A DNA stretch of 17,850 bases from a virus (Duplodnaviria > Heunggongvirae > Uroviricota > Caudoviricetes): IMG/VR virus record IMGVR_UViG_2654587568_000021; one strand, 5' to 3'. Below, piece after piece: positions 1-16,069 of this stretch; the first letter of the stretch is position 1; every line of letters starts with the position of its first letter. Made by a program: the position numbers and the translations under genes. The notes beneath the pieces were generated by a model. That model worked only from the letters and a program-made list of their open reading frames with translations, was not told the origin of the DNA and ran no database searches.

Positions 1-1215
1 GTGAAACTCAATGCCCGTCAAATAGACACAGCCAAGCCAAAAGAGAAGGCTTACAAGCTGGCCGATGGTGGCGGTTTGTATCTCTTGGTAAAACCTAATG
101 GAGGTAAATACTGGCGACTTAAATATCGTGTAGCTGGTAAAGAGAAGCTATTGGCACTAGGTGTGTATCCTGAGGTTACTCTAGCCGATGCTCGGGCAAA
201 ACGTGAAGATGCGAAAAGAGGTATCGCTGGTGGTATCGATCCGATGGAAGCGAAACGAGAGGAAAAGATTGCCCGGGAAACGCAGTTAAACAACACCTTC
301 AAAGATATTGCACTTGAGTGGCACAGCAGCAAATTAAAAAAATGGTCTGCTGGTTATGCTTCAGACATCCTCGAAGCCTTCAACAAAGATGTGTTCCCTT
401 ACATTGGCAAAAAACCAATCGCCGAAATCAAACCACTTGAACTTCTGAATGTGCTGCGGCGCATCGAGGGGCGAGGTGCTACAGAAAAAGCCAAAAAAGT
501 GAGGCAGCGGTGCGGGGAAGTTTTCCGCTATGCAATAGTCACTGGTCGCGCAGAGTATAACCCTGCACCAGACCTTACTAGCGCGATGCAAGGCCATGAA
601 TCTAATCATTACCCTTTCCTTACAGCCAAAGAATTACCTGATTTTTTCAAGGCATTGTCCAGTTACTCAGGAAGCGCATTGGTTGTTATGGCGGCTCGTC
701 TACTGATTATCACCGGCTTGCGAACTGGCGAACTACGTGGCGCATTATGGGATGAAATTGATTTCAACAAGGCTATCTGGGAGATACCCGCTTCACGTAT
801 GAAAATGCGGCGGCCTCATATTGTGCCATTGTCTGAGCAGGCTCTTTCGCTTATTGGGAAGATTAGAGAAATAACAGGCAATTACCCTCTTATGTTTCCC
901 GGGCGCAATGATCCAAGGAAAACAATGAGTGAGGCCAGCATAAACCAAGTGTTTAAGCGCATTGGCTACGCTGGACGTGTAACTGGTCATGGGTTCCGGC
1001 ACACTATGAGCACGATTTTGCATGAGCAGGGCTATAACACCGCGTGGATAGAAACGCAGCTCGCTCACGTTGATAATAACTCAATTCGTGGCACATACAA
1101 CCATGCGCAATATCTGGATGGAAGGCGGGAGATGCTTCAATGGTATGCCGACTATATGGATGCGCTGGAGAAGGAGGAGAACGTTGTTCATGGTTCGTTT
1201 GGGAAACGAGCTTAA
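1..1215 (+). CDS. int: P4-type tyrosine integrase (site-specific recombinase), 404 aa; ORF opens at the window edge with GTG, so the true start may lie upstream
   Basis: Full-length ORF. N-terminus (AKPKEKAYKLADGGGLYLLVKPNGGKYWRLKYR) matches the arm-binding region I recall for P4-family integrases, and the C-terminus carries R...HxxR...Y catalytic-type residues (GHGFRHT, RGTYNH). Family assignment is from memory, not a search. Confidence 0.88.
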   Translation: MKLNARQIDTAKPKEKAYKLADGGGLYLLVKPNGGKYWRLKYRVAGKEKLLALGVYPEVTLADARAKREDAKRGIAGGIDPMEAKREEKIARETQLNNTFKDIALEWHSSKLKKWSAGYASDILEAFNKDVFPYIGKKPIAEIKPLELLNVLRRIEGRGATEKAKKVRQRCGEVFRYAIVTGRAEYNPAPDLTSAMQGHESNHYPFLTAKELPDFFKALSSYSGSALVVMAARLLIITGLRTGELRGALWDEIDFNKAIWEIPASRMKMRRPHIVPLSEQALSLIGKIREITGNYPLMFPGRNDPRKTMSEASINQVFKRIGYAGRVTGHGFRHTMSTILHEQGYNTAWIETQLAHVDNNSIRGTYNHAQYLDGRREMLQWYADYMDALEKEENVVHGSFGKRA

Positions 1216-1357
1216 CTGTATGAATAGACAGTGTTAAGCAATGGTAGTAGACTTATGTAGACGAACAAAGAATAGGCTATGTCTAGGCTGATCCCCGAAA
1301 ACCCGTACACCCCTACGGGCTGGCATAGCCGTCAGAATTAGGGGCGCGGGGTGGCGT

Positions 1358-2239
1358 ATGGTGAGAGCCAAAAAACAAGATTTAGCATGGTTTGATATTA
1401 GTAATTATGAATTTTTAAATGATTTAACCTTGCCGGACTTGATTCAAGAATTAGAGTGGCGCGATTTTTTATTGCGTCATGCAAAAGATGACACTGCTAT
1501 ATTCAAAGAAGAGTACGATATAAAATATGAAAGGATTTTTTCGGGCGATCCTAACCTAACCATTCTCAATGAAGAAGAGGAAGAGGTTGAAGAATTTATT
1601 CGCAAAGTAAATGATGAAGCCCCATCATTAAGAAATGAGTACGATGATCTTCCCTCATTATCTTCAGCTATGGGGGTTAGTCCAGTAACATTTTCAGAGC
1701 TGGCCATGTACTCTTTCTCATCGATAGATCAAGGCTTTTTTAAAAGAGACGAAGAGGATTGCTACCTCAAGGCAAACGCTATGCTTGCGAGTGTTACTGG
1801 AAACCTAAGTAATTGTTCCCCTAACAGCATACTCGTTTCTATAGATTTAGATGACGCCACTGATGACGAAATTATTACCAGCCTGACTCACCTTCTACCT
1901 CTATGGCGAAAAGAGTTAAAAGTACCAGAGAGAGAGCATGTCGCTCAGAAAAGGATTGGATTAAAGACCCTCCAGAAGTTGATATCTAATAGAGTGATAC
2001 CTATTGTTGATCTGCTGATTTGGGGTGAGAAGTCAGGTAAGGAAGTGAGCAATCCGATGATTTCTGCCTTGGTTTTTAGTGATGATCCGAAAGATACGCA
2101 GGCTATTAAGGAATCAATAAAGCCTTTTGCACTTGAATCCATAAGCGAGAGATACACCCGCTTGCTTCAGCTTTATGTAAACAAAGACAGAGAAATGAGC
2201 TTGATAAAAATATCTGATTTAATGAGTAGAGATTTATAG
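1358..2239 (+). CDS. Hypothetical acidic protein, 293 aa, AT-rich cargo gene directly downstream of int; no recognisable motif
   Basis: Intact ORF with a G-rich stretch before the ATG. One 60-nt sample (1381-1440) is about 27% GC versus roughly 50% in flanking genes. Asp/Glu-rich. No catalytic motif I can recognise. Confidence 0.6.
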   Translation: MVRAKKQDLAWFDISNYEFLNDLTLPDLIQELEWRDFLLRHAKDDTAIFKEEYDIKYERIFSGDPNLTILNEEEEEVEEFIRKVNDEAPSLRNEYDDLPSLSSAMGVSPVTFSELAMYSFSSIDQGFFKRDEEDCYLKANAMLASVTGNLSNCSPNSILVSIDLDDATDDEIITSLTHLLPLWRKELKVPEREHVAQKRIGLKTLQKLISNRVIPIVDLLIWGEKSGKEVSNPMISALVFSDDPKDTQAIKESIKPFALESISERYTRLLQLYVNKDREMSLIKISDLMSRDL

Positions 2240-2282
2240 CAAGCAAAATCCTACGTAAACGTTTTAAGTAAATTTCGCGATT

Positions 2283-2319
2283 TCCGCTTTGAATACGCTA
2301 CTGTGTATTTCAAAGCGGA
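2283..2319. promoter_or_regulatory. Perfect 11-bp inverted repeat TCCGCTTTGAA-N15-TTCAAAGCGGA between the orphan gene and alpA; candidate operator or weak terminator
   Basis: Arms at 2283-2293 and 2309-2319 are exact reverse complements. Followed by an A/T-rich tract, not a clean U-run. Confidence 0.3.
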
Positions 2320-2436
2320 TAATCTTCTCAAAAAAATATTTTATTTTTATCCGCTATCACCCATTCACCGGTTTGTTTAATCTCCTTTCCGTCTACTGAT
2401 GTCCATTAAAGAAGATGACAGAATATAGGAGTAAAC

Positions 2437-2634
2437 ATGTCTCAATCATTTATTCGTCTTTCTGAGGTTCAACGCCGTACTGGTTACAGCAAAGCGTGGA
2501 TTTATCGGCTCATCAAAGAACAGCGATTCCCTCAATCTGTAAAGATTGGAAGCCGATCAATTGCGTTTATTGAAAGTGAAATTGAAGAATGGATTAATCA
2601 GCGCATCGCTGAGTCGCGTGGCGAGGTAGCGTAA
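2437..2634 (+). CDS. alpA: AlpA-family transcriptional regulator / excisionase-like HTH protein, 65 aa
   Basis: AGGAG RBS (taggagtaaacATG). Sequence RLSEVQRRTGYSKAWIYRLIKEQRFPQSVKIGSRSIAF is the characteristic AlpA/MerR-like HTH as I recall it. Stop overlaps the next start (TAATG). Confidence 0.88.
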   Translation: MSQSFIRLSEVQRRTGYSKAWIYRLIKEQRFPQSVKIGSRSIAFIESEIEEWINQRIAESRGEVA

Positions 2635-3065
2635 TGAATAAGAAAAACCGCCCATTACAGGCGGCTAATTCAGATATTCGCGTATCTGATGTTACGCCCC
2701 TGACAAAATCCCTTCAAGCACCAAAGCGCACACCGAAAAAGCATCGTGCCCGAGTCTATATGCTGCGTACTGGTATAGAGGGATGGACAGAAAATGACAT
2801 TCTTAGCTACTGCCGTCTGTCTTCTGGTCGTAACTATGCAACAGAGTTAGAACGCCAGCTTGGAATTACTCTGGAGCGTATCGACGAAAAGAATCCTGAT
2901 GGTATCGGAACACACCTTCGCTACCGTTTCTCCTGCCGTGGTGATGTTCTGAAAGTGATCACTCATGTTAACCATCTTGCGAACATAAATGATCACAACG
3001 GACTTTCTCAGCAGGAAATTGCCGACATTCTGAAACTCTACCCGGACGCGTTTAACGCCGCCTAA
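2634..3065 (+). CDS. Hypothetical protein, 143 aa, translationally coupled to alpA
   Basis: Start overlaps the alpA stop. Basic N-terminus. No motif recognised. Confidence 0.6.
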   Translation: MNKKNRPLQAANSDIRVSDVTPLTKSLQAPKRTPKKHRARVYMLRTGIEGWTENDILSYCRLSSGRNYATELERQLGITLERIDEKNPDGIGTHLRYRFSCRGDVLKVITHVNHLANINDHNGLSQQEIADILKLYPDAFNAA

Positions 3066-3077
3066 CGGAGACTGAAA

Positions 3078-3911
3078 ATGAACATCGAAAAAAGCAGATT
3101 AATTTCTGAGGCCGCCCCTCATCTGAACGCCTCTCTGGGCACAATTAACGGTAATGAATTTGCCGCAATTGTCCCAGTTATTCCTGGTCATATAGGTGGG
3201 CGTGAAACCAATATTGTTAGCGCAAAAGCGTTACACAAAGCGTTGGGCGTGGGAAAAGACTTCTCTACATGGATCACTGATCGCATCTCTGAATATGACT
3301 TCACCATTGGGCACGATTACTCAGTCCATAAAACAATTTCCCCAAATTTGGGGAAAAGCCCGAATGGCGCGGCTTACAGCAAGATTAAGCAGTCTGGCAG
3401 ACCCGGCAAAGACTATCTGTTAAGTGTCGGAATGGCGAAAGAACTGGCAATGATCGAACGCAATGATCAGGGTCGCGCTATCCGCCGTTATTTCATCCAG
3501 TGCGAGGAAGAATTACAGCGTAGCGCGCCTGAAATCGCCGCCCGCTATCGTCGCCAGCTAAAAGCCCGTATCAGTGCCGCAAACAACTTTAAGCCAATGT
3601 GCGATGCGCTGAATATGGCCCGTGCCGAGATGGGGAAAACGACGCAGCAACACCACTACACAAACGAGAGCAATATGATTTCTCGTATCGTTCTTGGTGG
3701 GATAACTGCTAAGCAGTGGGCGCGGATAAATGGCTATTCTGGCGAACCTCGCGACCATATGAACGCAGAACAGCTTGAGCACCTCTCATATCTCGAAAGC
3801 ACCAATATCACGTTAATTGATATGGGCATGGAATATGAGCAGCGCAAAGGAGAACTCACCCGCCTGTCGCAACGCTGGCTCGCCAAGCGTCTGGAGGCGG
3901 TCAATGTCTAA
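3078..3911 (+). CDS. Phage antirepressor-like protein (AntA/Rha/KilA-C type), 277 aa
   Basis: GGAG RBS. The central segment DYLLSVGMAKELAMIERNDQGRAIRRYFIQCEEEL resembles the conserved core of AntA/KilA-C antirepressor domains as I recall them. Confidence 0.65.
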   Translation: MNIEKSRLISEAAPHLNASLGTINGNEFAAIVPVIPGHIGGRETNIVSAKALHKALGVGKDFSTWITDRISEYDFTIGHDYSVHKTISPNLGKSPNGAAYSKIKQSGRPGKDYLLSVGMAKELAMIERNDQGRAIRRYFIQCEEELQRSAPEIAARYRRQLKARISAANNFKPMCDALNMARAEMGKTTQQHHYTNESNMISRIVLGGITAKQWARINGYSGEPRDHMNAEQLEHLSYLESTNITLIDMGMEYEQRKGELTRLSQRWLAKRLEAVNV

Positions 3912-4086
3912 GCCAACAGGAACACCACAACCTCAAAAACGCTACAAAGATGCCCACGGAGCACTCGTTACTGTCGAAAGCGTGTCTCACAACCGAGTGA
4001 CGTTTTATCGCGACGGGTATCAATCGCCATGCGTACAACCGCTGGCGCGCTTCATGAAGGAGTTCGCGGAGGTTAACAAATGCTAA
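3904..4086 (+). CDS. Small hypothetical protein, 60 aa (MSKPTGTPQPQKRYKDAHGALVTVES...)
   Basis: ATG at 3904 overlaps the stop of the upstream gene (ATGTCTAA). Start chosen inside the longer ORF-track frame 3817..4086. Confidence 0.45.
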   Translation: MSKPTGTPQPQKRYKDAHGALVTVESVSHNRVTFYRDGYQSPCVQPLARFMKEFAEVNKC

Positions 4087-4741
4087 CCGTCCAGAAGAAG
4101 ATATTTTCACTGGCTGGTATGTCACCAAAATCCAGCAATATGACAGCAAAGTCTGGCATTAATACAGCAGATACAAGCAAAGTTTATCATTTTCTGGTGG
4201 TAGGAGCGGATGCCTTAACTATGTCAGAAATTACGGTCGATGGTGTTAGCGTTGAGAAGGTCAGCGGCTGCGCCAGAGAATTTCTGGTCGTAGATGGCTT
4301 TCTCTGCTCGCGTAGTGACTCCACAAAAACCTTCGTCCATACGCGCGACGTTAACGAAATGAGCGCGATGTATTGTGCATCTGGTGCTTCCAATACTGAG
4401 TTTTCGGAGTCCATAAAAAAGAGCTTGCCGTTATGCGGCAACACGGTTTATGGTTATAAGGCACCTCATAAAACGGGTGCCGGGATTGGCGTCCTGAAAA
4501 TTCTGAAGGCGACATATGACGCGCCGAGCGTCTTTTTTTATGTCGTAGGTCTGACTCACCCATTTTTTGGGCGTTGGTGTATAATCCAGCGCCTTTGTCA
4601 ATCAATGGTGGCTCAGGCGGGGGCTTCTTCGGAAGCGCCGGTATCCTTCAGAGCCGGTTACGCCAACCCTGTCTGGGCTACCACCAGCGAAATTGGCGTT
4701 TCCGGTGGTAGCGTAACCTGCTATCTGAAGGAGGCTGCCAC
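4080..4741 (+). CDS. Uncertain ORF: frame stays open from an ATG at 4080 (overlapping the upstream stop) through to 5147, crossing a terminator-like hairpin, a promoter and the Icd-like gene; the part shown here may be a real gene, a fused or frameshifted remnant, or non-coding
   Basis: ATGCTAA start/stop overlap at 4080-4086 suggests coupling. An open frame of about 220 codons before the Icd-like start is unlikely by chance, but the translated composition is not convincing and regulatory signals lie inside it. Confidence 0.25.
4518..4539 (+). terminator. Candidate rho-independent terminator (GACGC-loop-GCGTC followed by T7)
   Basis: 5-bp GC-rich stem at 4518-4522 / 4528-4532, then TTTTTTT at 4533-4539. 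Confidence 0.35.
4550..4590 (+). promoter_or_regulatory. Candidate sigma70 promoter with perfect -10 TATAAT (4580-4585) preceded by TG; weak -35
   Basis: gtgTATAATcc at 4577-4587. Lies about 155 nt upstream of the Icd-like gene. Confidence 0.4.
4590..4735 (+). ncRNA. Candidate C4/IsrK-like antisense RNA leader upstream of the Icd-like gene (position-based hypothesis)
   Basis: In P1-type immunity regions a C4 RNA lies between the promoter and icd. Here a promoter-to-icd leader of about 150 nt occupies the same position. No structure or homology was verified. Confidence 0.25.
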
Positions 4742-4936
4742 ATGCTGGCTACTACCCCTACCCAAAAACCGCAATTTATCTGGATTATCGCCGCAGTTCG
4801 CCGCGATTGCCCGACAATTACCGCCAAAATTCATCATATTGCTGCCGAGTCTGAACGCGATGCTCGCCGTTCTCTGGTGCGCGATCACGTCTGCTTTTTT
4901 GCTGGTCGTATCCGCATGGAGGTGGCACATGATTAA
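4742..4936 (+). CDS. Host cell division inhibitor Icd-like protein, 64 aa
   Basis: Strong RBS AAGGAGG 7 nt upstream. Sequence FIWIIAAVRRD...IHHIAAESERDARRSLVRDHVCFFAGRI fits the Icd-like pattern I recall (FxWxxAAxxR ... SE.xARRxL ... FAxR). Confidence 0.7.
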   Translation: MLATTPTQKPQFIWIIAAVRRDCPTITAKIHHIAAESERDARRSLVRDHVCFFAGRIRMEVAHD

Positions 4937-5147
4937 AACCTACGATGTGCATATGGATCCCCTCGAACGCACAAGCCAGATCATCACACTGACAGAAGTG
5001 ATTAACGACATTCTGGTGAGCAACTCTCCCTCACGAGACGAAAGGCTGAAGGCGTTACTCGCGATATTGGATCTCGCCGTTCGTGACGTTCATTTCCTGC
5101 TGGAAGGTGGACAAATGCCAGGAAAAACGGGGGCAACCAATGAATAA
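4929..5147 (+). CDS. Small hypothetical protein, 72 aa (MIKTYDVHMDPLERTSQIITL...)
   Basis: ATG overlaps the Icd-like stop (ATGATTAA), with GGAGG upstream. This is the C-terminal part of the long open frame 4080..5147. Confidence 0.5.
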   Translation: MIKTYDVHMDPLERTSQIITLTEVINDILVSNSPSRDERLKALLAILDLAVRDVHFLLEGGQMPGKTGATNE

Positions 5148-6419: not shown

Positions 6420-9176
6420 ATGCGAAACATTGATCTTATCCGTCAGGTTATCAGTGCGTCTGAAAACAACTGGCCTCATGTGCTGGGCTGCCTGAACATA
6501 AATGTCCCTGACTCTCCGCGCCGTCATGCTCCCTGCCCTGCATGTGGGGGCAAAGATCGATTCCGGTTCGATGACAACGGGCGCGGTAGCTTCATCTGTA
6601 ATCAGTGCGGCGCTGGTGATGGGCTGGATTTAATTAAACGCGTAAATAACTGCGACACAACAGAGGCGGCGCTTCTTGCCGCTGATGTTCTGGGTATTGA
6701 TTACCGGACAACGGAAACACCAGAAGCCACCAGCCAGAAACGGGAACAACTGGAAACCGAGCGCCAGCGACGCGAACAGGAGCGCCTGAAAAGGGCAGAG
6801 AAGGACGAACAACAAAGACGGGATACGTTTTCCCGTCAGTTTGATGACATGCGCAGAAAGGCTGTAAACGGCAAATCTGATTATCTGGTTGCGAAAGGGG
6901 TAGGTGATTTTACATTCCCCGTGTTGCCCGATGGATCTCTGTTGCTGGCGCTGGTGGATAAATCCGGCGCAGTCACAGCAGCACAGACTATTACCTCACA
7001 TGGTGAAAAAAGACTCCTGACAGGTTCAGCAAAGCGAGGGGCATATCACGCCATAAACGCACCAGAAACAACACAGAGCATCTTAATCGCAGAAGGGCTG
7101 GCAACGGCATTATCTGCCCATTTAATTCGTTCAGAAGCGCTGACAGTGGCGGCGATTGATGCCGGGAACCTGTTATATGTCGCCCAGGTACTGCGGGATA
7201 AATTTCCTTCAGCACAAATCATCATTGCTGCGGATAACGACCACAGCGAAGGAAGACAAAACACGGGGAGAATAGCAGCAGAAAAAGCAGCTTTATCTGT
7301 TTCTGGATGGGTGGCATTACCCCCGACAGATCACAAAGCAGACTGGAATGATTACCACCAAAAACACGGCATTAAATGCGCCACAGAAGCGTTCAATAAG
7401 TCAATGTACCAACCACAGGGTAATGGCGTGAAACAGGAGCCACAGACCATTGAGGGAAGCGATTTTAAGGTTATGGATACCGACCCACTGAAACCAAGAA
7501 TAGAAAGCCGCGAGGATGGTATTTATTGGGTATCTCCGAGAGCTGACAGCCAGAGTGGAGAAATCATCAATAACGAAAGCTGGTTATGTTCTCCTTTAAG
7601 CGTTATCGGTACTGGCAGAGACGATAAAGACCAGTATCTCATTCTTCGCTGGCTGTCGTTTGGTTCTGAAACGCCGACAACCGCTGCCATTCCACTGGCT
7701 GATATTGGTGAACGTGAAGGATGGCGCACACTTAAAGCTGGTGGGGTAAATGTCACGACCAAAAGCAGCCTCAGAGCAATACTGGCAGACTGGCTACAAC
7801 GCAGTGGCTCTCGTGAATTGTGGCGTGTTGCTCATGCCACTGGCTGGCAATGCGGAGCGTACATCATGTCTGATGGGGAAATCATCGGAACACCTGAAAA
7901 TCCTGTGCTGTTCAGCGGGAGAAGCTCAGCCGCAGCCGGATATACCGTCTCAGGGAGCGCGAAAAGCTGGCGTGATAACGTGGCGCGTCTGGCCTTTGGT
8001 AACTATTCAATGATGACCGGGATCGGCGCAGCACTGGCAGCGCCATTGATTGGGCTGGTGGGCGCTGACGGGTTCGGTATTCATTTCTATGAGCAGTCGA
8101 GCGCAGGTAAGACCACCACGGCAAACGTGGCGAGCAGCTTATACGGCAACCCTGATTTACTGCGGCTGACGTGGTACGGAACCGCGCTGGGGCTGGCAAA
8201 TGAAGCCGCCGCCCACAATGACGGACTAATGCCGCTTGATGAAGTTGGTCAGGGCGCTGATCCTGTCAGTGTTTCACAGTCTGCCTATGCGTTATTTAAC
8301 GGTGTAGGGAAACTGCAAGGCGCTAAAGATGGTGGAAACCGGGATCTAAAACGCTGGCGTACAGTGGCAATCAGCACCGGAGAAATGGATTTAGAAACAT
8401 TTATCGCTACTTCCGGGCGAAAAACCAAAGCCGGGCAACTGGTGCGACTGCTGAATATTCCGTTGAGTAAAGCAGTACGCTTTCACGATTACCAGAACGG
8501 AAAACAGCACGCAGACGCACTGAAAGACGCTTACCAGCATCACCACGGCGCAGCCGGGCGTGAGTGGATTAAATGGCTGGCAGACCACCAGCAACAGGCT
8601 ATTAAAACTGTTCGTGACTGCGAAAGCAGATGGAGAAGCCTGATCCCATCCGATTATGGTGAGCAGGTTCACCGTGTAGCCGCGCGATTTGCCATTCTGG
8701 AGGCCGCATTGCTGTTAGGCGAGGTTGTAACAGGCTGGGATGCTCAGACATGCCGTGATGCGATACAGCACAGCTATAACGCATGGTTGCGCGAGTTCGG
8801 CACAGGTAACAAAGAGCATCAGCAGATTATTGAACAAACGGAGGCATTTCTTAATGCCTATGGGCTTAGCCGTTTTGCACCATTTCCATACAGCCCGGCA
8901 GATTTGCCCATCAAAGATTTAGCCGGATACCGTCAGCGTGGAGAACATGACGAAAGCCCAATGATTTTCTACACATTCCCGGCCACATTTGAAAAGGAGA
9001 TCGCATGTGGTTTCAACGCAAAACAGTTTGCTGAAGTGTTGAAAAAAGCCGGGATGCTAACCCCACCAAACAGCGGTCGTGGATACCAAAGAAAATCACC
9101 ACGTATTCAGGGACGACAAATAAACGTTTATGTACTCAATTACCAGCCAGGAGATTATAACTCATCCGAAGAATGA
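6420..9176 (+). CDS. P4 alpha-like DNA primase-helicase, 918 aa: N-terminal zinc ribbon, Toprim domain, C-terminal P-loop NTPase
   Basis: CPACGG...CNQCG zinc-binding motif. Toprim signatures IAEG and DNDH. Walker A SSAGKTTT and Walker B-like LMPLDEVGQG. Confidence 0.9.
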   Translation: MRNIDLIRQVISASENNWPHVLGCLNINVPDSPRRHAPCPACGGKDRFRFDDNGRGSFICNQCGAGDGLDLIKRVNNCDTTEAALLAADVLGIDYRTTETPEATSQKREQLETERQRREQERLKRAEKDEQQRRDTFSRQFDDMRRKAVNGKSDYLVAKGVGDFTFPVLPDGSLLLALVDKSGAVTAAQTITSHGEKRLLTGSAKRGAYHAINAPETTQSILIAEGLATALSAHLIRSEALTVAAIDAGNLLYVAQVLRDKFPSAQIIIAADNDHSEGRQNTGRIAAEKAALSVSGWVALPPTDHKADWNDYHQKHGIKCATEAFNKSMYQPQGNGVKQEPQTIEGSDFKVMDTDPLKPRIESREDGIYWVSPRADSQSGEIINNESWLCSPLSVIGTGRDDKDQYLILRWLSFGSETPTTAAIPLADIGEREGWRTLKAGGVNVTTKSSLRAILADWLQRSGSRELWRVAHATGWQCGAYIMSDGEIIGTPENPVLFSGRSSAAAGYTVSGSAKSWRDNVARLAFGNYSMMTGIGAALAAPLIGLVGADGFGIHFYEQSSAGKTTTANVASSLYGNPDLLRLTWYGTALGLANEAAAHNDGLMPLDEVGQGADPVSVSQSAYALFNGVGKLQGAKDGGNRDLKRWRTVAISTGEMDLETFIATSGRKTKAGQLVRLLNIPLSKAVRFHDYQNGKQHADALKDAYQHHHGAAGREWIKWLADHQQQAIKTVRDCESRWRSLIPSDYGEQVHRVAARFAILEAALLLGEVVTGWDAQTCRDAIQHSYNAWLREFGTGNKEHQQIIEQTEAFLNAYGLSRFAPFPYSPADLPIKDLAGYRQRGEHDESPMIFYTFPATFEKEIACGFNAKQFAEVLKKAGMLTPPNSGRGYQRKSPRIQGRQINVYVLNYQPGDYNSSEE

Positions 9177-9760: not shown

Positions 9761-9934
9761 ATGGCTATTTCAGTAAAGCCAGTATTGATAAGTGAGAAGC
9801 AAATGGAAGCGATAAAGAAAATTCAGGAGGAGCAGCGTAAAAAATCAGAGGTAGGAGTTGCGCCAACGATCCACGAAATTGCTCGGGGATTAATGGATAA
9901 GGCGCTGGCTTACACTTTAACTGGACGTGGGTAA
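9761..9934 (+). CDS. Small hypothetical protein, 57 aa, first gene of the cargo operon (below the 60-aa ORF-track cutoff)
   Basis: RBS AGGGGG at 9751-9756, ATG at 9761, TAA at 9932-9934; translated by hand as MAISVKPVLISEKQMEAIKKIQEEQRKKSEVGVAPTIHEIARGLMDKALAYTLTGRG. Confidence 0.5.
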   Translation: MAISVKPVLISEKQMEAIKKIQEEQRKKSEVGVAPTIHEIARGLMDKALAYTLTGRG

Positions 9935-9938
9935 ATCA

Positions 9939-11405
9939 ATGGCTACGTGGCAACAGGGTATTAATTCTGGTGGTTTTCTGGCTGGCATTGGTGCGCAAAA
10001 CGAGAATGCGCCAAAGGCAAGCGACATTAACGCAACGCTTGGTCTGATCCGCGAAAACAATGAACTGGCTCGCTCAGGTGCAAATAACGTTGCTCTGACA
10101 GGTCTTCGTGGTCTGGCTGGCGTTGCTGATATTTATAAGCAGCAGCAACAGCAGGAGCGTAAAGCGGCATTCCAGAAAGGTTATGCAGATGCTTATGCGT
10201 CCGGTGACAGGGAGCAGATGCGTAATCTTATTACAGCATTCCCAGAAGAGTTTGAGGAAGTCCGTAAAGGGATGAGTTATGTCGATGATGCTCAAAGGGA
10301 TGATTATGGCAATCTGGCGCTCAAAGCACAGGTAGCCTCATCGCTTGGTCAGGGCGCATTTGGCAGGTTCATGATGGATAATGAGCAGGAGATGCGTCGT
10401 TTAGGTATCCCTCCAGAAACTATTGCTGAAATGCAGGTTAATGACCCGCAGGGCTTCCAGCATTTCGCAGGTAATCTGGCGCTGTTTTCTCTCGGTCATG
10501 AGAAGTATTTCGATATCAAAGATCAAATGGAAGGTCGGGATATTGAGCGTGGCAAGTTGGCAGAGACAATCCGCAGCAATCAGGCTGGCGAAGCACTTCA
10601 GGCGAGAGGGCAGGATATTAGCCGAGCAAATGCGTTAACGTCAGCATATGCACCAACAGCAGCAATGCAGAATTACAATCAGTACGCGCAAATGTTAAAG
10701 GCGGATCCAGAGGGGGCGGCGGCATTTGCGGCAGCGGCTGGAATTAATACAAACGCCAAAAAATTAATGAGTGTTAGAGAAAACGATGATGGCACTGTCA
10801 CAAAATACTACACAGACGGAAGTGAAGAGCAGGGAAAACTAAACCAGCCAATATCTGGAGATGGGTTTCGTCCAATAGCTTTGCCAACAGCCCAAAAGAT
10901 CATGGAAAAGTCGCCAGAAGGGGCTAAAAAAGCTGCTGGATTTGCATACAGGGTTAGGGATGCTCTTGATTCAATAGATACACTGAAAGACCAGCTTAGC
11001 CCACAGCGAGTGGCGATCATTAATAATGCTTTGGGTAATGGGACGCTGGCTAACTTAACGCTCAGCCCAGCAGAGCAGCAATACGTTGTTAATGCTAATG
11101 ACGCAATAATGGCAATACTCCGTCAGGAAACAGGGGCATCTATCCTACCAGCTGAAATGTCCAAATATTATCAAATGTATTTCCCTCAGCCTGGTGATTC
11201 CACAAAAACCATTGATACCAAGCGCCGGAAGATGGAAAACCAGTTCAATTCGCTGAAAGCTGCTTCTGGTCGAACTTATGATGCTTTGCGGGTTATTTCA
11301 GCAGTTGACAGAGGAACTGCTTCTTCGTCGCAGACATTGCCGCAATCTGAGCAGGTATCACAGCCAGCAGCCAGCAGTAACTTTTCTTCACTATGGGGTG
11401 ATTAA
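9939..11405 (+). CDS. Large hypothetical protein, about 488 aa, Ala/Gln/Gly-rich; no family recognised. An alternative GTG start at 9927 gives the 492-aa ORF-track version
   Basis: Long intact ORF with an ATG 4 nt after the upstream stop. Stop overlaps the next start (TAATG). Confidence 0.8.
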   Translation: MATWQQGINSGGFLAGIGAQNENAPKASDINATLGLIRENNELARSGANNVALTGLRGLAGVADIYKQQQQQERKAAFQKGYADAYASGDREQMRNLITAFPEEFEEVRKGMSYVDDAQRDDYGNLALKAQVASSLGQGAFGRFMMDNEQEMRRLGIPPETIAEMQVNDPQGFQHFAGNLALFSLGHEKYFDIKDQMEGRDIERGKLAETIRSNQAGEALQARGQDISRANALTSAYAPTAAMQNYNQYAQMLKADPEGAAAFAAAAGINTNAKKLMSVRENDDGTVTKYYTDGSEEQGKLNQPISGDGFRPIALPTAQKIMEKSPEGAKKAAGFAYRVRDALDSIDTLKDQLSPQRVAIINNALGNGTLANLTLSPAEQQYVVNANDAIMAILRQETGASILPAEMSKYYQMYFPQPGDSTKTIDTKRRKMENQFNSLKAASGRTYDALRVISAVDRGTASSSQTLPQSEQVSQPAASSNFSSLWGD

Positions 11406-13510
11406 TGGCTAAAGCATGGAAAGATGTTATCGCCTCTCCACAGTATCAGGCGTTAGCACCAGAACAAAAAGCGCAGGCTCAGGAGCAATACTTCAATGAA
11501 GTCGTGGCCCCGCAAGCCGGAGAAAGTGTAGAGCAGGCTAAGCAGGCTTTTTATGCTGCCTATCCACTACCATCAACGAATGAAATAGACCGATCCCAAT
11601 CAGCAACTCAAAATATTCAACATACATCATCTGATAATTCTCTTGCGTCAGGGTATGCAAAGTTAGCTACTCAGCAAAGAGAGGGGCTTGAGCGTTCAGC
11701 AGAACAGGGAGCCAGTCTTGGGGCTGCGATGCGCGATGCTATAACAGGCGAAAGCCGAATGACTCCAGAGATGGAGAGACTGCAAAATGTCGCCTCTGCC
11801 CCAGAATTGAACTCACTAAGCATGGATGCCCTAAAGGCTGGATGGTCTCAACTTTTCGGCTCTGACGCGTCTCAGGAAAAGATTCTTCAGGGAATGGGGG
11901 CGACATTAAGGCAGGATGAGAAGGGGAATACTATCGTTTCTCTGCCATCAGGTGATTATGCCCTGAACAAGCCGGGTTTATCACCGCAAGACCTGACCTC
12001 GTTTCTTGCTAATGCGTTGGCGTTTACACCAGCGGGCAGGGCTGGAACGGTGCTTGGTGCCATAGGAAAATCAGCAGCTACAGATTTAGCACTACAGGGA
12101 GCCACCAGCCTTGCTGGTGGAGAAGATATTGATCCGTTACAAACGGTAATTTCTGCTGGCATTGGTGGTATTGGTAAGGGGCTGGAAAATACAGCGAGTG
12201 CGGTTTCGAGGGCTGTTCGTGGTGATATGTCGCCTGAAGCAAAGGCTGCTGTCGACTTTGCATCGGAAAGAAATCTGCCGTTAATGACCAGTGACATGCT
12301 GAAAGATAAAACCTTTATGCAGAGTCAGGCTCAGACATTAGGCGAAAGAGTTCCTTTTTTTGGAACCGGTAAGAATCGGCTGAATCAACAACAAGCACGA
12401 GAAAATTTAGTCAGAACATTTAGCGATGGTCTGGGTGGCATTTCTGATAAACAGCTTTATGAATCTGCGACTAAAGGGCAACAAAAATTCATTGAGGCAG
12501 CAGGAAAGCGATATAACCGCATAATTGACGCTATGGGGGATACCCCTGTCGATCTCTCAAACACGGTAAAAGCTATCGACAATCAGATTGCCGTGTTAAG
12601 CCGCCCGGGCAAATCTCAGGATAGAGCCGCGGTAAAAGTCTTGCAGCAATTTAAAGACGATATCACCAGCGGACCAAATGACCTGCGTCTGGCGAGGGAA
12701 AACAGAACCGATCTTCGAAAGCGATTTATGGCGTCATCTGACACTGTTGATAAAGATACGCTCCAGAAAGCCAGCGATATTATCTACAAGGCATATACGG
12801 CGGATATGAAAAAAGCCGTAGCCAAAAATCTTGGAGCAGACGAAGCCATTAATATGGCAAGGGTTGATCGCTCATGGTCTAAATTCAATGACATGATGGG
12901 AAGAACGCGCGTTCAAAAGGCAATAGCCAGCGGCAAGGCCACGCCTGAGGATGTAACAAAACTCGTTTTTAGCCAAAGCCCATCAGAACGTTCTCAGCTT
13001 TACAGGCTTCTGGATGACAATGGTAGGCAAAACGCACGAGCAGCCATAGTTCAGAATGCTGTAGATAAGGCGACTGATCCGTCTGGAAATATCAGTGTTG
13101 AGAAGTTTATTAATGCGTTACACCGGAACAGGAAGCAATCAGCAACTTTCTTTAAAGGCGTACATGGAAAGGAACTGGACGGCGTTATTAAATACCTCAA
13201 CGATACAAGACACGCGGCAAAAGCGAACGTTCAAAACTTAAATGGTCAGCAGCTTTATGGATTGTTAGTTGGTGGTGGCATCATAAACGCAGCAGTATTA
13301 GCGGGGATGCTAAAAACGGCTGCGTTTGTTGTTCCTGCTGCTGGTGCCGTAGGCGGAGCAGCGAAGGCATACGAAAGCCCTGTTATACGAAATGCCTTGT
13401 TACGTCTGGCAAATACGCCAAAAGGTAGCACAGCATATGACAGAGCGATCAGTACGGTCACACAATCGCTCACCAGAGTCGCACAGGCATCACAAAAAGA
13501 AGCTCAATAA
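11405..13510 (+). CDS. Large hypothetical protein, 701 aa, with a C-terminal Gly/Ala-rich hydrophobic segment (LYGLLVGGGIINAAVLAGMLKTAAFVVPAAGAVGGAA); function unknown
   Basis: Long intact ORF coupled to the upstream gene and followed by a terminator hairpin. No enzymatic motif recognised. Confidence 0.85.
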   Translation: MAKAWKDVIASPQYQALAPEQKAQAQEQYFNEVVAPQAGESVEQAKQAFYAAYPLPSTNEIDRSQSATQNIQHTSSDNSLASGYAKLATQQREGLERSAEQGASLGAAMRDAITGESRMTPEMERLQNVASAPELNSLSMDALKAGWSQLFGSDASQEKILQGMGATLRQDEKGNTIVSLPSGDYALNKPGLSPQDLTSFLANALAFTPAGRAGTVLGAIGKSAATDLALQGATSLAGGEDIDPLQTVISAGIGGIGKGLENTASAVSRAVRGDMSPEAKAAVDFASERNLPLMTSDMLKDKTFMQSQAQTLGERVPFFGTGKNRLNQQQARENLVRTFSDGLGGISDKQLYESATKGQQKFIEAAGKRYNRIIDAMGDTPVDLSNTVKAIDNQIAVLSRPGKSQDRAAVKVLQQFKDDITSGPNDLRLARENRTDLRKRFMASSDTVDKDTLQKASDIIYKAYTADMKKAVAKNLGADEAINMARVDRSWSKFNDMMGRTRVQKAIASGKATPEDVTKLVFSQSPSERSQLYRLLDDNGRQNARAAIVQNAVDKATDPSGNISVEKFINALHRNRKQSATFFKGVHGKELDGVIKYLNDTRHAAKANVQNLNGQQLYGLLVGGGIINAAVLAGMLKTAAFVVPAAGAVGGAAKAYESPVIRNALLRLANTPKGSTAYDRAISTVTQSLTRVAQASQKEAQ

Positions 13511-14921: not shown

Positions 14922-15107
14922 TCATTGGTTGCCAGCCCGCGAATCAAGTTTGTTCTGGATCCAAGCTTCAACCTCCTCAAGCGACCATCTAGCTGATCTA
15001 CCAATTTTAACTGGCTGTGGAAACGTGCCCGTCTTAACCCATGAGTAGATTGCCGTTTTCTTGAAGCCCGTTCTGAGCATAACTTCGCTTAATTTGATAA
15101 GGCGCAT
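14922..15107 (-). CDS. alpA: Second AlpA-family regulator, 61 aa, on the - strand
   Basis: MRLIKLSEVMLRTGFKKTAIYSWVKTGTFPQPVKIGRSARWSLEEVEAWI is a typical AlpA HTH as I recall it. AGGAG RBS on the - strand upstream of the ATG. Confidence 0.85.
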   Translation of the reverse strand: MRLIKLSEVMLRTGFKKTAIYSWVKTGTFPQPVKIGRSARWSLEEVEAWIQNKLDSRAGNQ

Positions 15108-15781: not shown

Positions 15782-16069
15782 ATGATAAGGGACAGGAAAG
15801 CTGAAGATCTGGAGTCAAAAGGGCTATACCGGAGAGCTGCCGCACGATGGGCAGAAATCATGATGCTGGCAGATGGCGATAAAGAACGTGAACATGCAGC
15901 AAACAGACGCTCTGAATGTATCCGTAAGGCGGCACGCCAACCAGCAACTACAGACAGATTCGGAGATTTAAGACAGGCAGTTAAGCGAACTCATTCGGCT
16001 CTTGGTATGGATGAGGAAGCGAGAGGGTACTTCAGGCGTTATCGCGATAAAGATTGCCAGAGACAGTAA
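15782..16069 (+). CDS. PerC-family transcriptional regulator-like protein, 95 aa
   Basis: GAGAGG RBS. The segment LESKGLYRRAAARWAEIM resembles the conserved PerC/Pch motif as I recall it. Confidence 0.6.
   Translation: MIRDRKAEDLESKGLYRRAAARWAEIMMLADGDKEREHAANRRSECIRKAARQPATTDRFGDLRQAVKRTHSALGMDEEARGYFRRYRDKDCQRQ

What the first reader, a model, noticed from the sequence alone, without database searches (positions are those of the whole stretch)
1358..2239. AT-rich acidic orphan gene in the integrase-proximal cargo position
The 293-aa ORF is markedly lower in GC than int and alpA on either side and has no recognisable domain. Variable cargo genes, often single-gene anti-phage defences, are known to sit in hotspots of P4-like satellites and PICIs; whether this slot corresponds to such a hotspot is inference.
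Basis: partly seen in the sequence, partly recalled or inferred. Interest (0 to 1): 0.55.

Follow-up and report, generated by a model that had tools for sequence, protein, structure and literature searches.

The report
Swappable gene slot behind RNA leader
The "orphan" gene is a real DUF6387-family gene occupying a one-gene swappable slot between the integrase and the master regulator alpA of a phage-satellite island; unrelated genes fill this slot in related islands, always behind the same structured RNA leader, so it is probably a module for phage–satellite interplay whose function has never been tested.

Summary
The ORF (1358-2239, 293 aa, pI 4.6, GC 38% against 47% for int) is real. It is not domain-less: it is a full-length DUF6387 (PF19924) protein. 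It matches no known defence family, and its confident AlphaFold model has no relative in PDB or BFVD.

The island is an EcCIMP1-like Gram-negative PICI at tRNA-Thr. Only 87 of 5426 complete E. coli genomes carry the gene. Sister islands with about 98% identical int lack it.

Three findings are new.
- The Rfam motif "int-alpA RNA" (RF02996, 1276-1343) ends 14 nt before the start codon. A hairpin loop in it is complementary to the Shine-Dalgarno sequence.
- In 116 leader-selected loci, the single ORF between int and alpA belongs to at least 7 unrelated, unannotated protein families. DUF6387 is about 12% of them.
- Each family brings its own repeats in front of alpA. In one family the repeats follow the protein's C-terminal domain, not AlpA.

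DUF6387 stays directly upstream of alpA even at 22-31% identity and in other island types.

Best reading (about 0.4): a cassette-specific regulator or sensor that gates alpA. Main rival (about 0.33): a single-gene anti-phage cargo. Neither has been tested experimentally.

The parts
1..1215 (+). P4-type tyrosine integrase (left flank of the slot)
   Evidence: Pfam Arm-DNA-bind_3, Phage_int_M and Phage_integrase. In NZ_CP024886 it lies 165 nt from tRNA-Thr.
1192..2445 (+). The exchangeable cassette: the stretch with no homology to sister islands that lack the gene
   Evidence: blastn against L002-L004 aligns 1-1191 (98-99%) and 2446-3100 (91%) only.
1225..1262 (+). Three TAGAC boxes (1225-1229, 1248-1252, 1258-1262). 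The first two also form a sigma-70-like TAGACA-17-TAGACT promoter match.
   Evidence: Promoter scan. The boxes are conserved across genera. There are 2-3 boxes per 62 nt before the leader in 62 of 88 loci, against a background of 0.12 per 100 nt.
1276..1343 (+). int-alpA RNA motif (Rfam RF02996), here a 5' leader of the ORF. P1 is 1276-1283 with 1322-1329. P3 is 1302-1306 with 1315-1319.
   Evidence: cmscan 46.7 bits against a gathering score of 35.8. Covariation in P1 and P3: 92.6% of cells paired against 36-48% when the partners are slid, and 0 of 500 shuffles reach the observed values.
1308..1313 (+). Anti-Shine-Dalgarno loop CACCCC of hairpin P3
   Evidence: Complementary to GGGGUG (1348-1353) and to AGGGG (1340-1344). 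Other lineages have CACCUC with GAGGUG and AGAGG. 95.6% of cells are paired, and no combination among 116 leaders breaks the pairing.
1348..1353 (+). Shine-Dalgarno sequence GGGGUG of the ORF, 4 nt before the ATG
   Evidence: Read directly from the sequence. It pairs with the loop.
1358..2239 (+). DUF6387-family protein gene (293 aa, all-alpha, acidic)
2281..2321 (.). Inverted repeat TTTCCGCTTTGAA-15 nt-TTCAAAGCGGATA. A third CCGCT copy lies at about 2347-2356. It is a candidate operator, or a weak terminator.
   Evidence: Found at +36 to +46 after the stop codon in 14 of the 17 int-adjacent DUF6387 loci, with lineage-specific arms. No canonical terminator was found.
2391..2396 (-). GTAGAC box 41 nt upstream of the alpA start codon
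   Evidence: A TAGAC or GTCTA box lies near the alpA start in 69 of 88 loci, whatever the cassette.
2437..2634 (+). alpA (right flank of the slot). In Gram-negative PICIs it is the helper-induced master regulator.
   Evidence: Pfam Phage_AlpA, E=9e-20. The role is taken from PMC11773190.

Best explanation
The ORF encodes a DUF6387-family protein. It is one allele of a one-gene exchangeable cassette that sits between int and alpA in EcCIMP1-like (P4-related) Gram-negative phage-inducible chromosomal islands.

Shown. The cassette has a fixed front end and a variable body.
- Front end: TAGAC boxes with a promoter-like site, then the int-alpA RNA leader. The P3 loop of the leader is an anti-Shine-Dalgarno sequence that can pair with the ribosome-binding site of the ORF.
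- Body: one ORF plus an ORF-specific spacer that carries repeats and ends at the alpA ribosome-binding site.

Inferred.
- The leader keeps translation of whatever ORF sits in the slot low or conditional.
- The DUF6387 protein acts at the inverted repeat in front of alpA, through its conserved and only non-acidic C-terminal half. There it gates transcription of alpA, the master switch of the island.
- Its variable acidic N-terminal part senses a helper-phage or competitor-phage product.

The logic resembles the hypervariable Stl repressors of staphylococcal islands. The cassette would then set which phages switch the island on.
For: Slot and cassette.
- Sister islands lack the gene, with sharp homology breaks at 1191 and 2446.
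- 87 of 5426 E. coli genomes carry the gene. Other genomes carry a 265-aa gene (148 genomes) or a 239-aa gene (8 genomes) behind the same RNA.
- In 116 leader-selected IMG/VR loci, int lies upstream and alpA 100-230 nt downstream in nearly all. The ORF between them falls into at least 7 unrelated families. RF02996 reaches its gathering score in representatives of 9 clusters within the int-alpA slot.

Leader.
- P1 and P3 covary, and the loop is complementary to the SD.
- The RNA sits 14-16 nt from the start codon in every int-adjacent DUF6387 locus, down to 25% protein identity.

Link to alpA.
- Each slot family has its own repeats before alpA.
- L096 and L054 share only a C-terminal 78 aa (76% identity) and the same ACTTCCAA repeats. 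L096 and L144 have AlpA proteins one residue apart but different repeats.
- DUF6387 is directly upstream of alpA at 24-31% identity, in DUF3987/YfjJ islands, in ICEKp258.2 and in a Serratia island.
- An inverted repeat sits at a conserved position after the DUF6387 stop codon.
- alpA is the helper-induced master regulator (PMC11773190).
Against: - No DNA-binding domain was detected in DUF6387 by Pfam, NCBIfam, a PDB profile search or fold search.
- The protein is strongly acidic.
- The tracking of repeats by protein domain was shown for another slot family, not for DUF6387.
- The DUF6387 inverted repeat could be an RNA hairpin or a terminator: a T-run follows it in 3 lineages.
- Many functional-looking sister islands have no slot gene at all, so it is dispensable for basic island biology.
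- Covariation between the loop and the SD rests on essentially one lineage event.
- The single-sequence fold of the leader is not unusually stable, z = -0.9.
Confidence: 0.4

Rival explanations
1. The gene is a single-gene anti-phage (or anti-helper/competitor interference) cargo in a previously undescribed PICI hotspot. The RNA leader keeps a potentially toxic effector translationally silent until infection. The repeats in the spacer belong to alpA regulation or to transcription termination and have nothing to do with the cargo protein.
For: - The gene shows presence/absence and replacement polymorphism between conserved core genes.
- GC is low.
- All occupants are unannotated 'dark' proteins, as is typical of defence hotspots in P4-like satellites and PICIs (PMC9122126, PMC13586616, PMC11364771).
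- New PICI defence genes such as Tai were also invisible to PADLOC and DefenseFinder.
- Tight translational control fits a toxic effector.
Against: - PADLOC gives no hit for DUF6387 or for 12 other slot proteins.
- No enzymatic, nucleotide-binding or membrane domain was found.
- The spacer repeats co-vary with the slot protein, not with AlpA.
- DUF6387 keeps its position directly upstream of alpA in at least 3 unrelated island architectures, which a free cargo gene need not do.
Confidence: 0.33
2. The protein is an accessory factor of site-specific recombination. It would set directionality or act as an architectural partner of Int and AlpA/Xis, working at the island's att sites rather than on transcription.
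For: - It sits between int and an AlpA/excisionase-family gene.
- In a Serratia island the order is DUF6387-alpA-int-int.
- AlpA-family proteins can act as excisionases (PMC11773190).
Against: - Sister islands with the same int (98% identity) do without it.
- At least 7 unrelated families replace it behind the same leader, which is hard to reconcile with a conserved recombination role.
- The cognate repeats lie 1-2 kb from the att core.
Confidence: 0.1
3. The leader and the protein form an RNA-protein pair, like a type III toxin-antitoxin or an autoregulated ribonucleoprotein. The int-alpA RNA would be processed and would neutralise or be bound by the protein.
For: - A conserved structured RNA lies directly upstream of the gene.
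- Rfam classes the motif as an sRNA gene.
Against: - The RNA is a single copy, not a tandem array.
- No terminator lies between the RNA and the ORF.
- The same RNA precedes at least 7 unrelated proteins, so it cannot be a specific partner of DUF6387.
- Distant DUF6387 genes lack the RNA.
Confidence: 0.05

Closest known systems
Pfam DUF6387 (PF19924) family proteins, e.g. KPNJ2_RS09320 of ICEKp258.2
   Same: Full-length homology. Also the same position immediately upstream of an alpA gene in a genomic island.
   Different: No member has a known function. The ICEKp258.2 and DUF3987/YfjJ-island members are only about 22-25% identical and lack the int-alpA RNA leader.
Rfam RF02996 int-alpA RNA motif (Weinberg et al. 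2017, PMC5737381)
   Same: The element at 1276-1343 scores above the family's gathering threshold and has the family's three-helix structure.
   Different: Rfam files it as an sRNA gene named after its neighbours. Here it behaves as a 5' leader ending 14-16 nt before the start codon of a variable ORF, with an anti-SD loop. I found no paper describing this.
Stl master repressors of SaPIs (Gram-positive PICIs); comparison from my own knowledge of the field
   Same: An int-adjacent, hypervariable gene among otherwise related islands. It is proposed to bind operators in front of the island's activator and to sense helper proteins.
   Different: - No HTH was detected in DUF6387.
- The gene is co-directional with alpA, not divergent from its target.
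- Many sister islands lack any slot gene.
- Gram-negative PICIs are described as repressor-less and alpA-activated.
- Neither DNA binding nor derepression has been tested.
Defence hotspots of P4-like satellites and PICIs (PMC9122126, PMC13586616, PMC11364771)
   Same: A variable accessory locus flanked by conserved satellite core genes.
   Different: - The position differs. The described hotspots are int-psu and primase-att in P4, and the 5' end (att-int), the 3' end and next to pri in PICIs. This one is int-alpA.
- It always holds a single ORF.
- It has a conserved RNA leader.
- None of its occupants is recognised as a defence gene.
EcCIMP1 (E. coli PICI, helper Kapi1; PMC11773190)
   Same: The same island type: int, a small accessory CDS, alpA, antirepressor, Ash region, primase, P22-like virion genes, a second reversed alpA and PerC.
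   Different: The slot gene of EcCIMP1 (EcCIMP1_002) is a much smaller protein, mis-annotated as UvrB-like and without a phenotype in the UV test. It is not a DUF6387 protein.

Membership tests
Pfam DUF6387 (PF19924) | Match to the family HMM above the curated gathering score over most of the model | tested here: met
   134.6 bits against 28.9; residues 5-269 against model positions 6-256 of 258. RefSeq gives the same name.
Rfam RF02996 int-alpA RNA | Covariance-model score above the gathering threshold | tested here: met
   46.7 bits against 35.8 at 1276-1343 (+).
Rfam RF02996 int-alpA RNA | Helices supported by compensatory changes | tested here: met
   P1 and P3 each have 4 pairs with changes on both sides. 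0 of 500 shuffles reach the observed values, and slid controls pair at 36-48% against 92.6%. P2 is weak, at 73% paired.
Known anti-phage defence systems (PADLOC-DB 2.0) | Homology to a protein of a described or candidate defence system | tested here: not met
   0 families at E no higher than 10 for the ORF. 0 families for 12 other slot proteins.
Known anti-phage defence systems | Location in a variable hotspot between conserved core genes of a mobile element | tested here: met
Known anti-phage defence systems | Confers phage resistance when expressed | not testable with these tools
   Needs plaque assays.
Gram-negative PICI (EcCIMP1-like) | int at the tRNA-proximal end followed by alpA, a primase/replication module, no full virion gene set | tested here: met
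   tRNA-Thr lies next to int in L001. AlpA, AntA, a DUF927/Toprim primase, a P22 Inj_translocase protein and PerC are present. C4 and isrK RNAs are present.
Gram-negative PICI (EcCIMP1-like) | Induction, excision and packaging by a helper phage | not testable with these tools
   Experimental.
Canonical P4-like satellite | [quoted passage not shown] | tested here: not met
   Only one ORF lies between int and alpA. No psu, delta or sid appears in the RefSeq annotation of the identical island or in Pfam scans of the large ORFs.
Stl-like master repressor | Recognisable DNA-binding (HTH) domain | tested here: not met
Stl-like master repressor | Cognate operator repeats between the gene and the regulated activator gene | tested here: inconclusive
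   A position-conserved inverted repeat follows DUF6387. Tracking of repeats by protein domain was shown only for another slot family.
Stl-like master repressor | Hypervariable among related islands, next to int | tested here: met
Type III toxin-antitoxin | Tandem array of antitoxin RNA repeats and a terminator before the toxin gene | tested here: not met
   The RNA is a single copy. No terminator was found.

The most novel reading that the evidence does not exclude
The int-alpA interval of Gram-negative PICIs is a dedicated cassette-exchange site.
- A fixed expression platform (TAGAC boxes plus the int-alpA riboregulator) drives interchangeable sensor-regulator proteins, of which DUF6387 is one.
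- Each protein has its own operators in front of alpA.
- These proteins would be the long-sought determinants of which helper phages induce a Gram-negative PICI. They would be functional analogues of SaPI Stl, built from entirely new folds.
- The orphan RNA motif RF02996 would be their shared translational switch.
Probability: 0.3. Interest if true: 0.8.

Novelty: new variant of a known kind. Interest (0 to 1): 0.62.

Why it matters
- How Gram-negative PICIs recognise their helper phages and switch on alpA is not understood. A hypervariable gene with cognate DNA repeats right in front of alpA is a concrete, testable candidate for that specificity.
- If the slot genes are instead defence genes, this is an undescribed satellite hotspot. 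It holds at least 7 protein families that no defence database recognises.
- Either way, an orphan Rfam motif (int-alpA RNA) gets a genomic role as the shared 5' leader of the slot, with an anti-Shine-Dalgarno loop.
- A DUF family gets a precise context and a confident model of a fold with no solved relative.

Tried and rejected
- NCBIfam gave no hit. PADLOC gave no hit.
- A profile search of PDB sequences found nothing.
- Foldseek against BFVD found nothing at E below 1. The afdb50 library was not available.
- The search for related loci with the broad alignment A4 failed because it has no conserved peptide. With A1 it gave only 6 genome loci and 9 metagenome loci.
- A second homologue search with A4, and a third with P0050, added few distant members.
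- The single-sequence RNA fold of leader plus start region has z = -0.9. It prefers an alternative pairing of the P3 5' strand and loop with the AGGGG/SD tail, so on its own it is not evidence for structure.
- The spaced TAGAC-N10-TAGAC pattern, and GTAGAC counts in the window alone, are not significant. Only the cross-locus positional enrichment is.
- hhalign found no relation between DUF6387 and the 239-aa or 265-aa slot proteins.
- The idea that the slot is the P4 int-psu hotspot was rejected, because there is no psu, delta or sid.
- The supplement of Weinberg 2017, which describes the motif, is not held.

Full report
**1. The observation**

The ORF at 1358-2239 (+) exists. It starts with ATG and encodes 293 aa. 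It coincides with the RefSeq CDS WP_000251023.1 in an identical island of E. coli AR_0017.

Its GC content is 0.382. That compares with 0.474 for int (1-1215), 0.434 for alpA (2437-2634) and 0.498 for the following 6.5 kb. The protein is acidic: pI 4.62, net charge -20. Only the last 93 residues are near neutral or basic.

It is a conserved protein rather than a chance ORF. There are 47 clusters at 43-100% identity in Escherichia, Salmonella, Yersinia, Pantoea, Pectobacterium, Enterobacter, Klebsiella, Providencia, Xenorhabdus and Morganella, with 66 invariant columns.

- The protein has a recognisable family. It is a full-length match to Pfam DUF6387, PF19924 (E=6e-39), and to phrog_23422.
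- It is not an orphan. A profile search finds about 500 clusters at 50% identity.

**2. What kind of element carries it**

The island sits next to tRNA-Thr (thrW), downstream of proBA. Pfam and Rfam identify the following parts:
- a P4-type integrase
- AlpA
- an AntA antirepressor
- the P4/P1-type immunity RNAs isrK (4461-4538) and C4 (4601-4688)
- a Zn-ribbon/Toprim/DUF927 primase (6420-9176)
- a P22 injectosome translocase (9927-11405)
- a second alpA on the opposite strand (14922-15107)
- PerC (15782-16069)

There is no psu-delta-sid module. This is the organisation of the experimentally characterised E. coli PICI EcCIMP1, whose helper is the P22-like phage Kapi1. In EcCIMP1, the alpA just downstream of int is the helper-induced master regulator (PMC11773190).

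**3. The gene is an optional cassette**

Only 87 of 5426 complete E. coli genomes carry the gene. It is always single-copy and chromosomal, and all but one copy are at least 99.4% identical. More than 1200 genomes have a related int.

All seven sampled relatives that share int and alpA (H3-H9) lack the gene. The four I inspected have either an empty interval of 390-430 bp or a 129-aa ORF on the other strand.

blastn shows that homology to these sister islands stops at position 1191, inside the 3' end of int. It resumes at 2446, nine bases into alpA. The replaced unit is therefore the whole interval, non-coding flanks included.

**4. A structured RNA leader**

The spacer between the int stop and the ORF start is far better conserved than the protein. 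This holds across Escherichia, Salmonella, Providencia, Pantoea and metagenomic relatives, and the spacer shows compensatory changes.

Rfam identifies it as RF02996, the 'int-alpA RNA', at 1276-1343 (46.7 bits against a gathering score of 35.8). It ends 14 nt before the ATG.

On 19 distinct leaders, P1 and P3 each have four pairs with changes on both sides. 92.6% of cells are paired, against 36-48% when the partners are slid. None of 500 shuffles reaches the observed values.

The P3 loop is CACCUC in most lineages and CACCCC in the window (1308-1313). It is complementary to two sequences:
- the Shine-Dalgarno sequence, GAGGUG in most lineages and GGGGUG in the window (1348-1353)
- an upstream SD-like block, AGAGG in most lineages and AGGGG in the window (1340-1344)

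For the loop-SD pairing, 95.6% of cells are paired. Among 116 further leaders, no combination breaks the pairing. The C-variant loop occurs only where both partners carry G. This amounts to one lineage event, so it is suggestive and not proof.

A single-sequence fold is not unusually stable (z = -0.9). It shows an alternative pairing of the P3 5' strand and loop with the tail.

I infer a cis-acting translational control element. Rfam lists the motif as an sRNA. I found no paper giving it a role.

Sister islands without the gene have no RF02996 hit. The RNA is present in front of DUF6387 even in an Oceanospirillaceae MAG where the protein is 25% identical.

**5. The same leader precedes unrelated genes**

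The leader DNA hits 128 E. coli genomes. In the roughly 40 that lack DUF6387, the same RNA sits at the same distance from the start codon of other ORFs, again followed by alpA. Rfam scores there are 38-47 bits (the 239-aa locus L046 gave no Rfam hit there and its leader was recognised by 87% DNA identity). The other ORFs are:
- a 265-aa coiled-coil protein, present in 148 genomes, in islands at tRNA-Gly
- a 239-aa protein, present in 8 genomes, in islands at thrW

These are described. hhalign against the DUF6387 profile finds no relation.

A pattern scan of IMG/VR for the leader gave 116 loci. In nearly all of them int lies upstream, and alpA lies 100-230 nt after the single intervening ORF.

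The ORFs fall into 15 BLAST clusters. By profile comparison they make at least 7 unrelated families:
- one super-family (C0/C1/C4/C10) that shares only a C-terminal domain of about 70-120 aa
- C6/C9
- DUF6387 (C3/C7; 13 of 109 ORFs)
- C2, C5, C8 and C12, each on its own

None except DUF6387 has a Pfam or PADLOC match. RF02996 reaches its gathering score in representatives of 9 clusters within the int-alpA slot.

The same AlpA allele (at least 95% identity) occurs with up to four slot families. Each slot family occurs with several AlpA alleles.

Caveat: the scan pattern was Enterobacterales-biased, and the 116 loci are not phylogenetically independent.

**6. Cognate DNA repeats**

Each slot family has its own repeats between its stop codon and alpA:
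- ACCCTnAGGGT, 3-6 copies, in C0
- ACTTCCAA, 4-6 copies, in C1
- the ACCGCAATTGCGGT palindrome, 2 copies, in C2
- further family-specific repeats in the other families

L096 and L054 have unrelated N-terminal parts. They share a C-terminal 78 aa at 76% identity, and they share the same ACTTCCAA repeats. L096 and L144 have AlpA proteins that differ by one residue, but their repeats and C-terminal domains differ. The repeats therefore follow the C-terminal domain of the slot protein, not AlpA. The simplest reading is sequence-specific DNA binding in front of alpA.

For DUF6387 itself the evidence is weaker. An inverted repeat lies at a conserved position, +36 to +46 after the stop codon, in 14 of the 17 int-adjacent DUF6387 loci examined. 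Its arms are 9-13 nt, separated by 8-28 nt, and lineage-specific. In the window it is TTTCCGCTTTGAA-15-TTCAAAGCGGATA at 2281-2321. It could be an operator or an RNA hairpin. A T-run follows it in three lineages, and the scan finds no canonical terminator.

**7. DUF6387 and alpA travel together**

The order int -> DUF6387 -> alpA holds at 63-68%, 46%, 31% and 24% identity, on different island backbones and at different tRNA sites.

Members at 22-25% identity sit in a different arrangement, DUF3987 -> DUF6387 -> alpA -> YfjJ, without the RNA.

Published gene tables show two more arrangements:
- DUF6387 -> alpA in ICEKp258.2 of Klebsiella (PMC10763509)
- DUF6387 -> alpA -> int -> int in a Serratia island (PMC9964261)

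**8. The protein**

With a diverse alignment, AlphaFold2 gives a confident all-alpha model (pLDDT 88.4, pTM 0.75).
- Foldseek against BFVD finds nothing.
- A profile search against PDB sequences finds nothing.

The C-terminal half (about residues 155-290) is the most conserved part of the family, and it is the part shared with cluster C7.

**9. Interpretation**

Shown:
- a real DUF6387 gene
- a one-gene exchangeable slot between int and alpA
- a shared structured leader with an anti-SD loop
- family-specific repeats in front of alpA

Inferred (confidence about 0.4): the protein acts at the repeat upstream of alpA and gates the island's master regulator. Its variable part would sense phage products, as SaPI Stl does. 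The comparison with Stl rests on my own knowledge of the field.

It fits the polymorphism, the low GC and the 'dark' proteins. It does not explain the cognate repeats or the persistent adjacency to alpA, and it has no database support.

Minor rivals are a recombination accessory factor (0.1) and an RNA-protein toxin-antitoxin-like pair (0.05).

**10. Comparison with what is known, and novelty**

The described satellite hotspots lie elsewhere.
- In P4-like elements they are int-psu and primase-att (PMC13586616).
- In PICIs they are the 5' end, the 3' end and next to pri (PMC11364771).

I found no description of an int-alpA slot, of a role for RF02996, or of a function for DUF6387. I therefore rate the finding a new variant of a known kind: a satellite hotspot with a dedicated RNA-controlled expression platform and cognate DNA sites. 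The gene itself is a member of a known family of unknown function.

Noticed in passing
window 4461-4538 and 4601-4688 (+): isrK (67.8 bits) and C4 antisense RNA (79.9 bits), the P4/P1-type immunity RNAs. They lie inside the long ORF 4080-5147, which RefSeq annotates as an 'ash family protein'. That ORF may be largely non-coding.
   Followed up: partly
window 1225-1262 (+) and 2391-2396 (-); loci L050-L165: TAGAC boxes flank the cassette. There are 2-3 direct copies just before the leader and about 1 near the alpA start, whatever the slot gene. This is about 10-30 times the background of 0.12 per 100 nt. They are candidate sites for a conserved factor (AlpA autoregulation?) or anchors for cassette exchange.
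   Followed up: partly
L047-L049 4912-5146; L054, L096, L067, L075, L133 spacers: There are arrays of family-specific repeats between the slot gene and alpA: ACCCTnAGGGT 3-6 copies; ACTTCCAA 4-6 copies; ACCGCAATTGCGGT 2 copies; ATATAAAGGGGTTTATAT 2 copies. In family A they follow the C-terminal domain of the slot protein.
   Followed up: partly
L140 1314-1379 and L154 9105-9168: The highest-scoring RF02996 hit (53.4 bits, L140) and another hit (L154) lie in high-GC phage-like contigs with no int or alpA nearby. In L140 the RNA sits between a 403-aa ORF and an HNH-like ORF. The RNA is therefore not restricted to the int-alpA context.
   Followed up: no
window 9927-13510 (+): A P22 injectosome translocase homologue (Inj_translocase, E=1e-83) and a 701-aa partner are carried by the satellite. 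This suggests a P22-like helper, as for EcCIMP1 and Kapi1.
   Followed up: no
window 14922-15107 (-) and 15782-16069 (+): A second, reversed alpA-family gene and a PerC activator lie at the far end of the island. This mirrors alpA_1 and perC of EcCIMP1, where alpA_1 can substitute for the helper's excisionase.
   Followed up: no
several loci, 35 nt before the alpA ATG, e.g. L052, L054, L077: A hairpin CTCGTAA-N14-TTACGAG has a 3' arm that overlaps the alpA Shine-Dalgarno sequence (GAGG). alpA translation may also be structure-controlled in those cassettes. The window's DUF6387 cassette has a different alpA-proximal sequence.
   Followed up: no
window 1211-1240: An imperfect hairpin CTTAACTGT-N8-ACAGTGTTAAG overlaps the int stop codon (TAA, 1213-1215). 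It is conserved in Pantoea and Shimwellia relatives. Its function is unknown.
   Followed up: no
L001 31498-32475 (NZ_CP024886, same island family): The otherwise identical island in strain AR_0017 carries an Abi-family protein and a different 3' region from the window. The 3' end is therefore a separate variable region.
   Followed up: no
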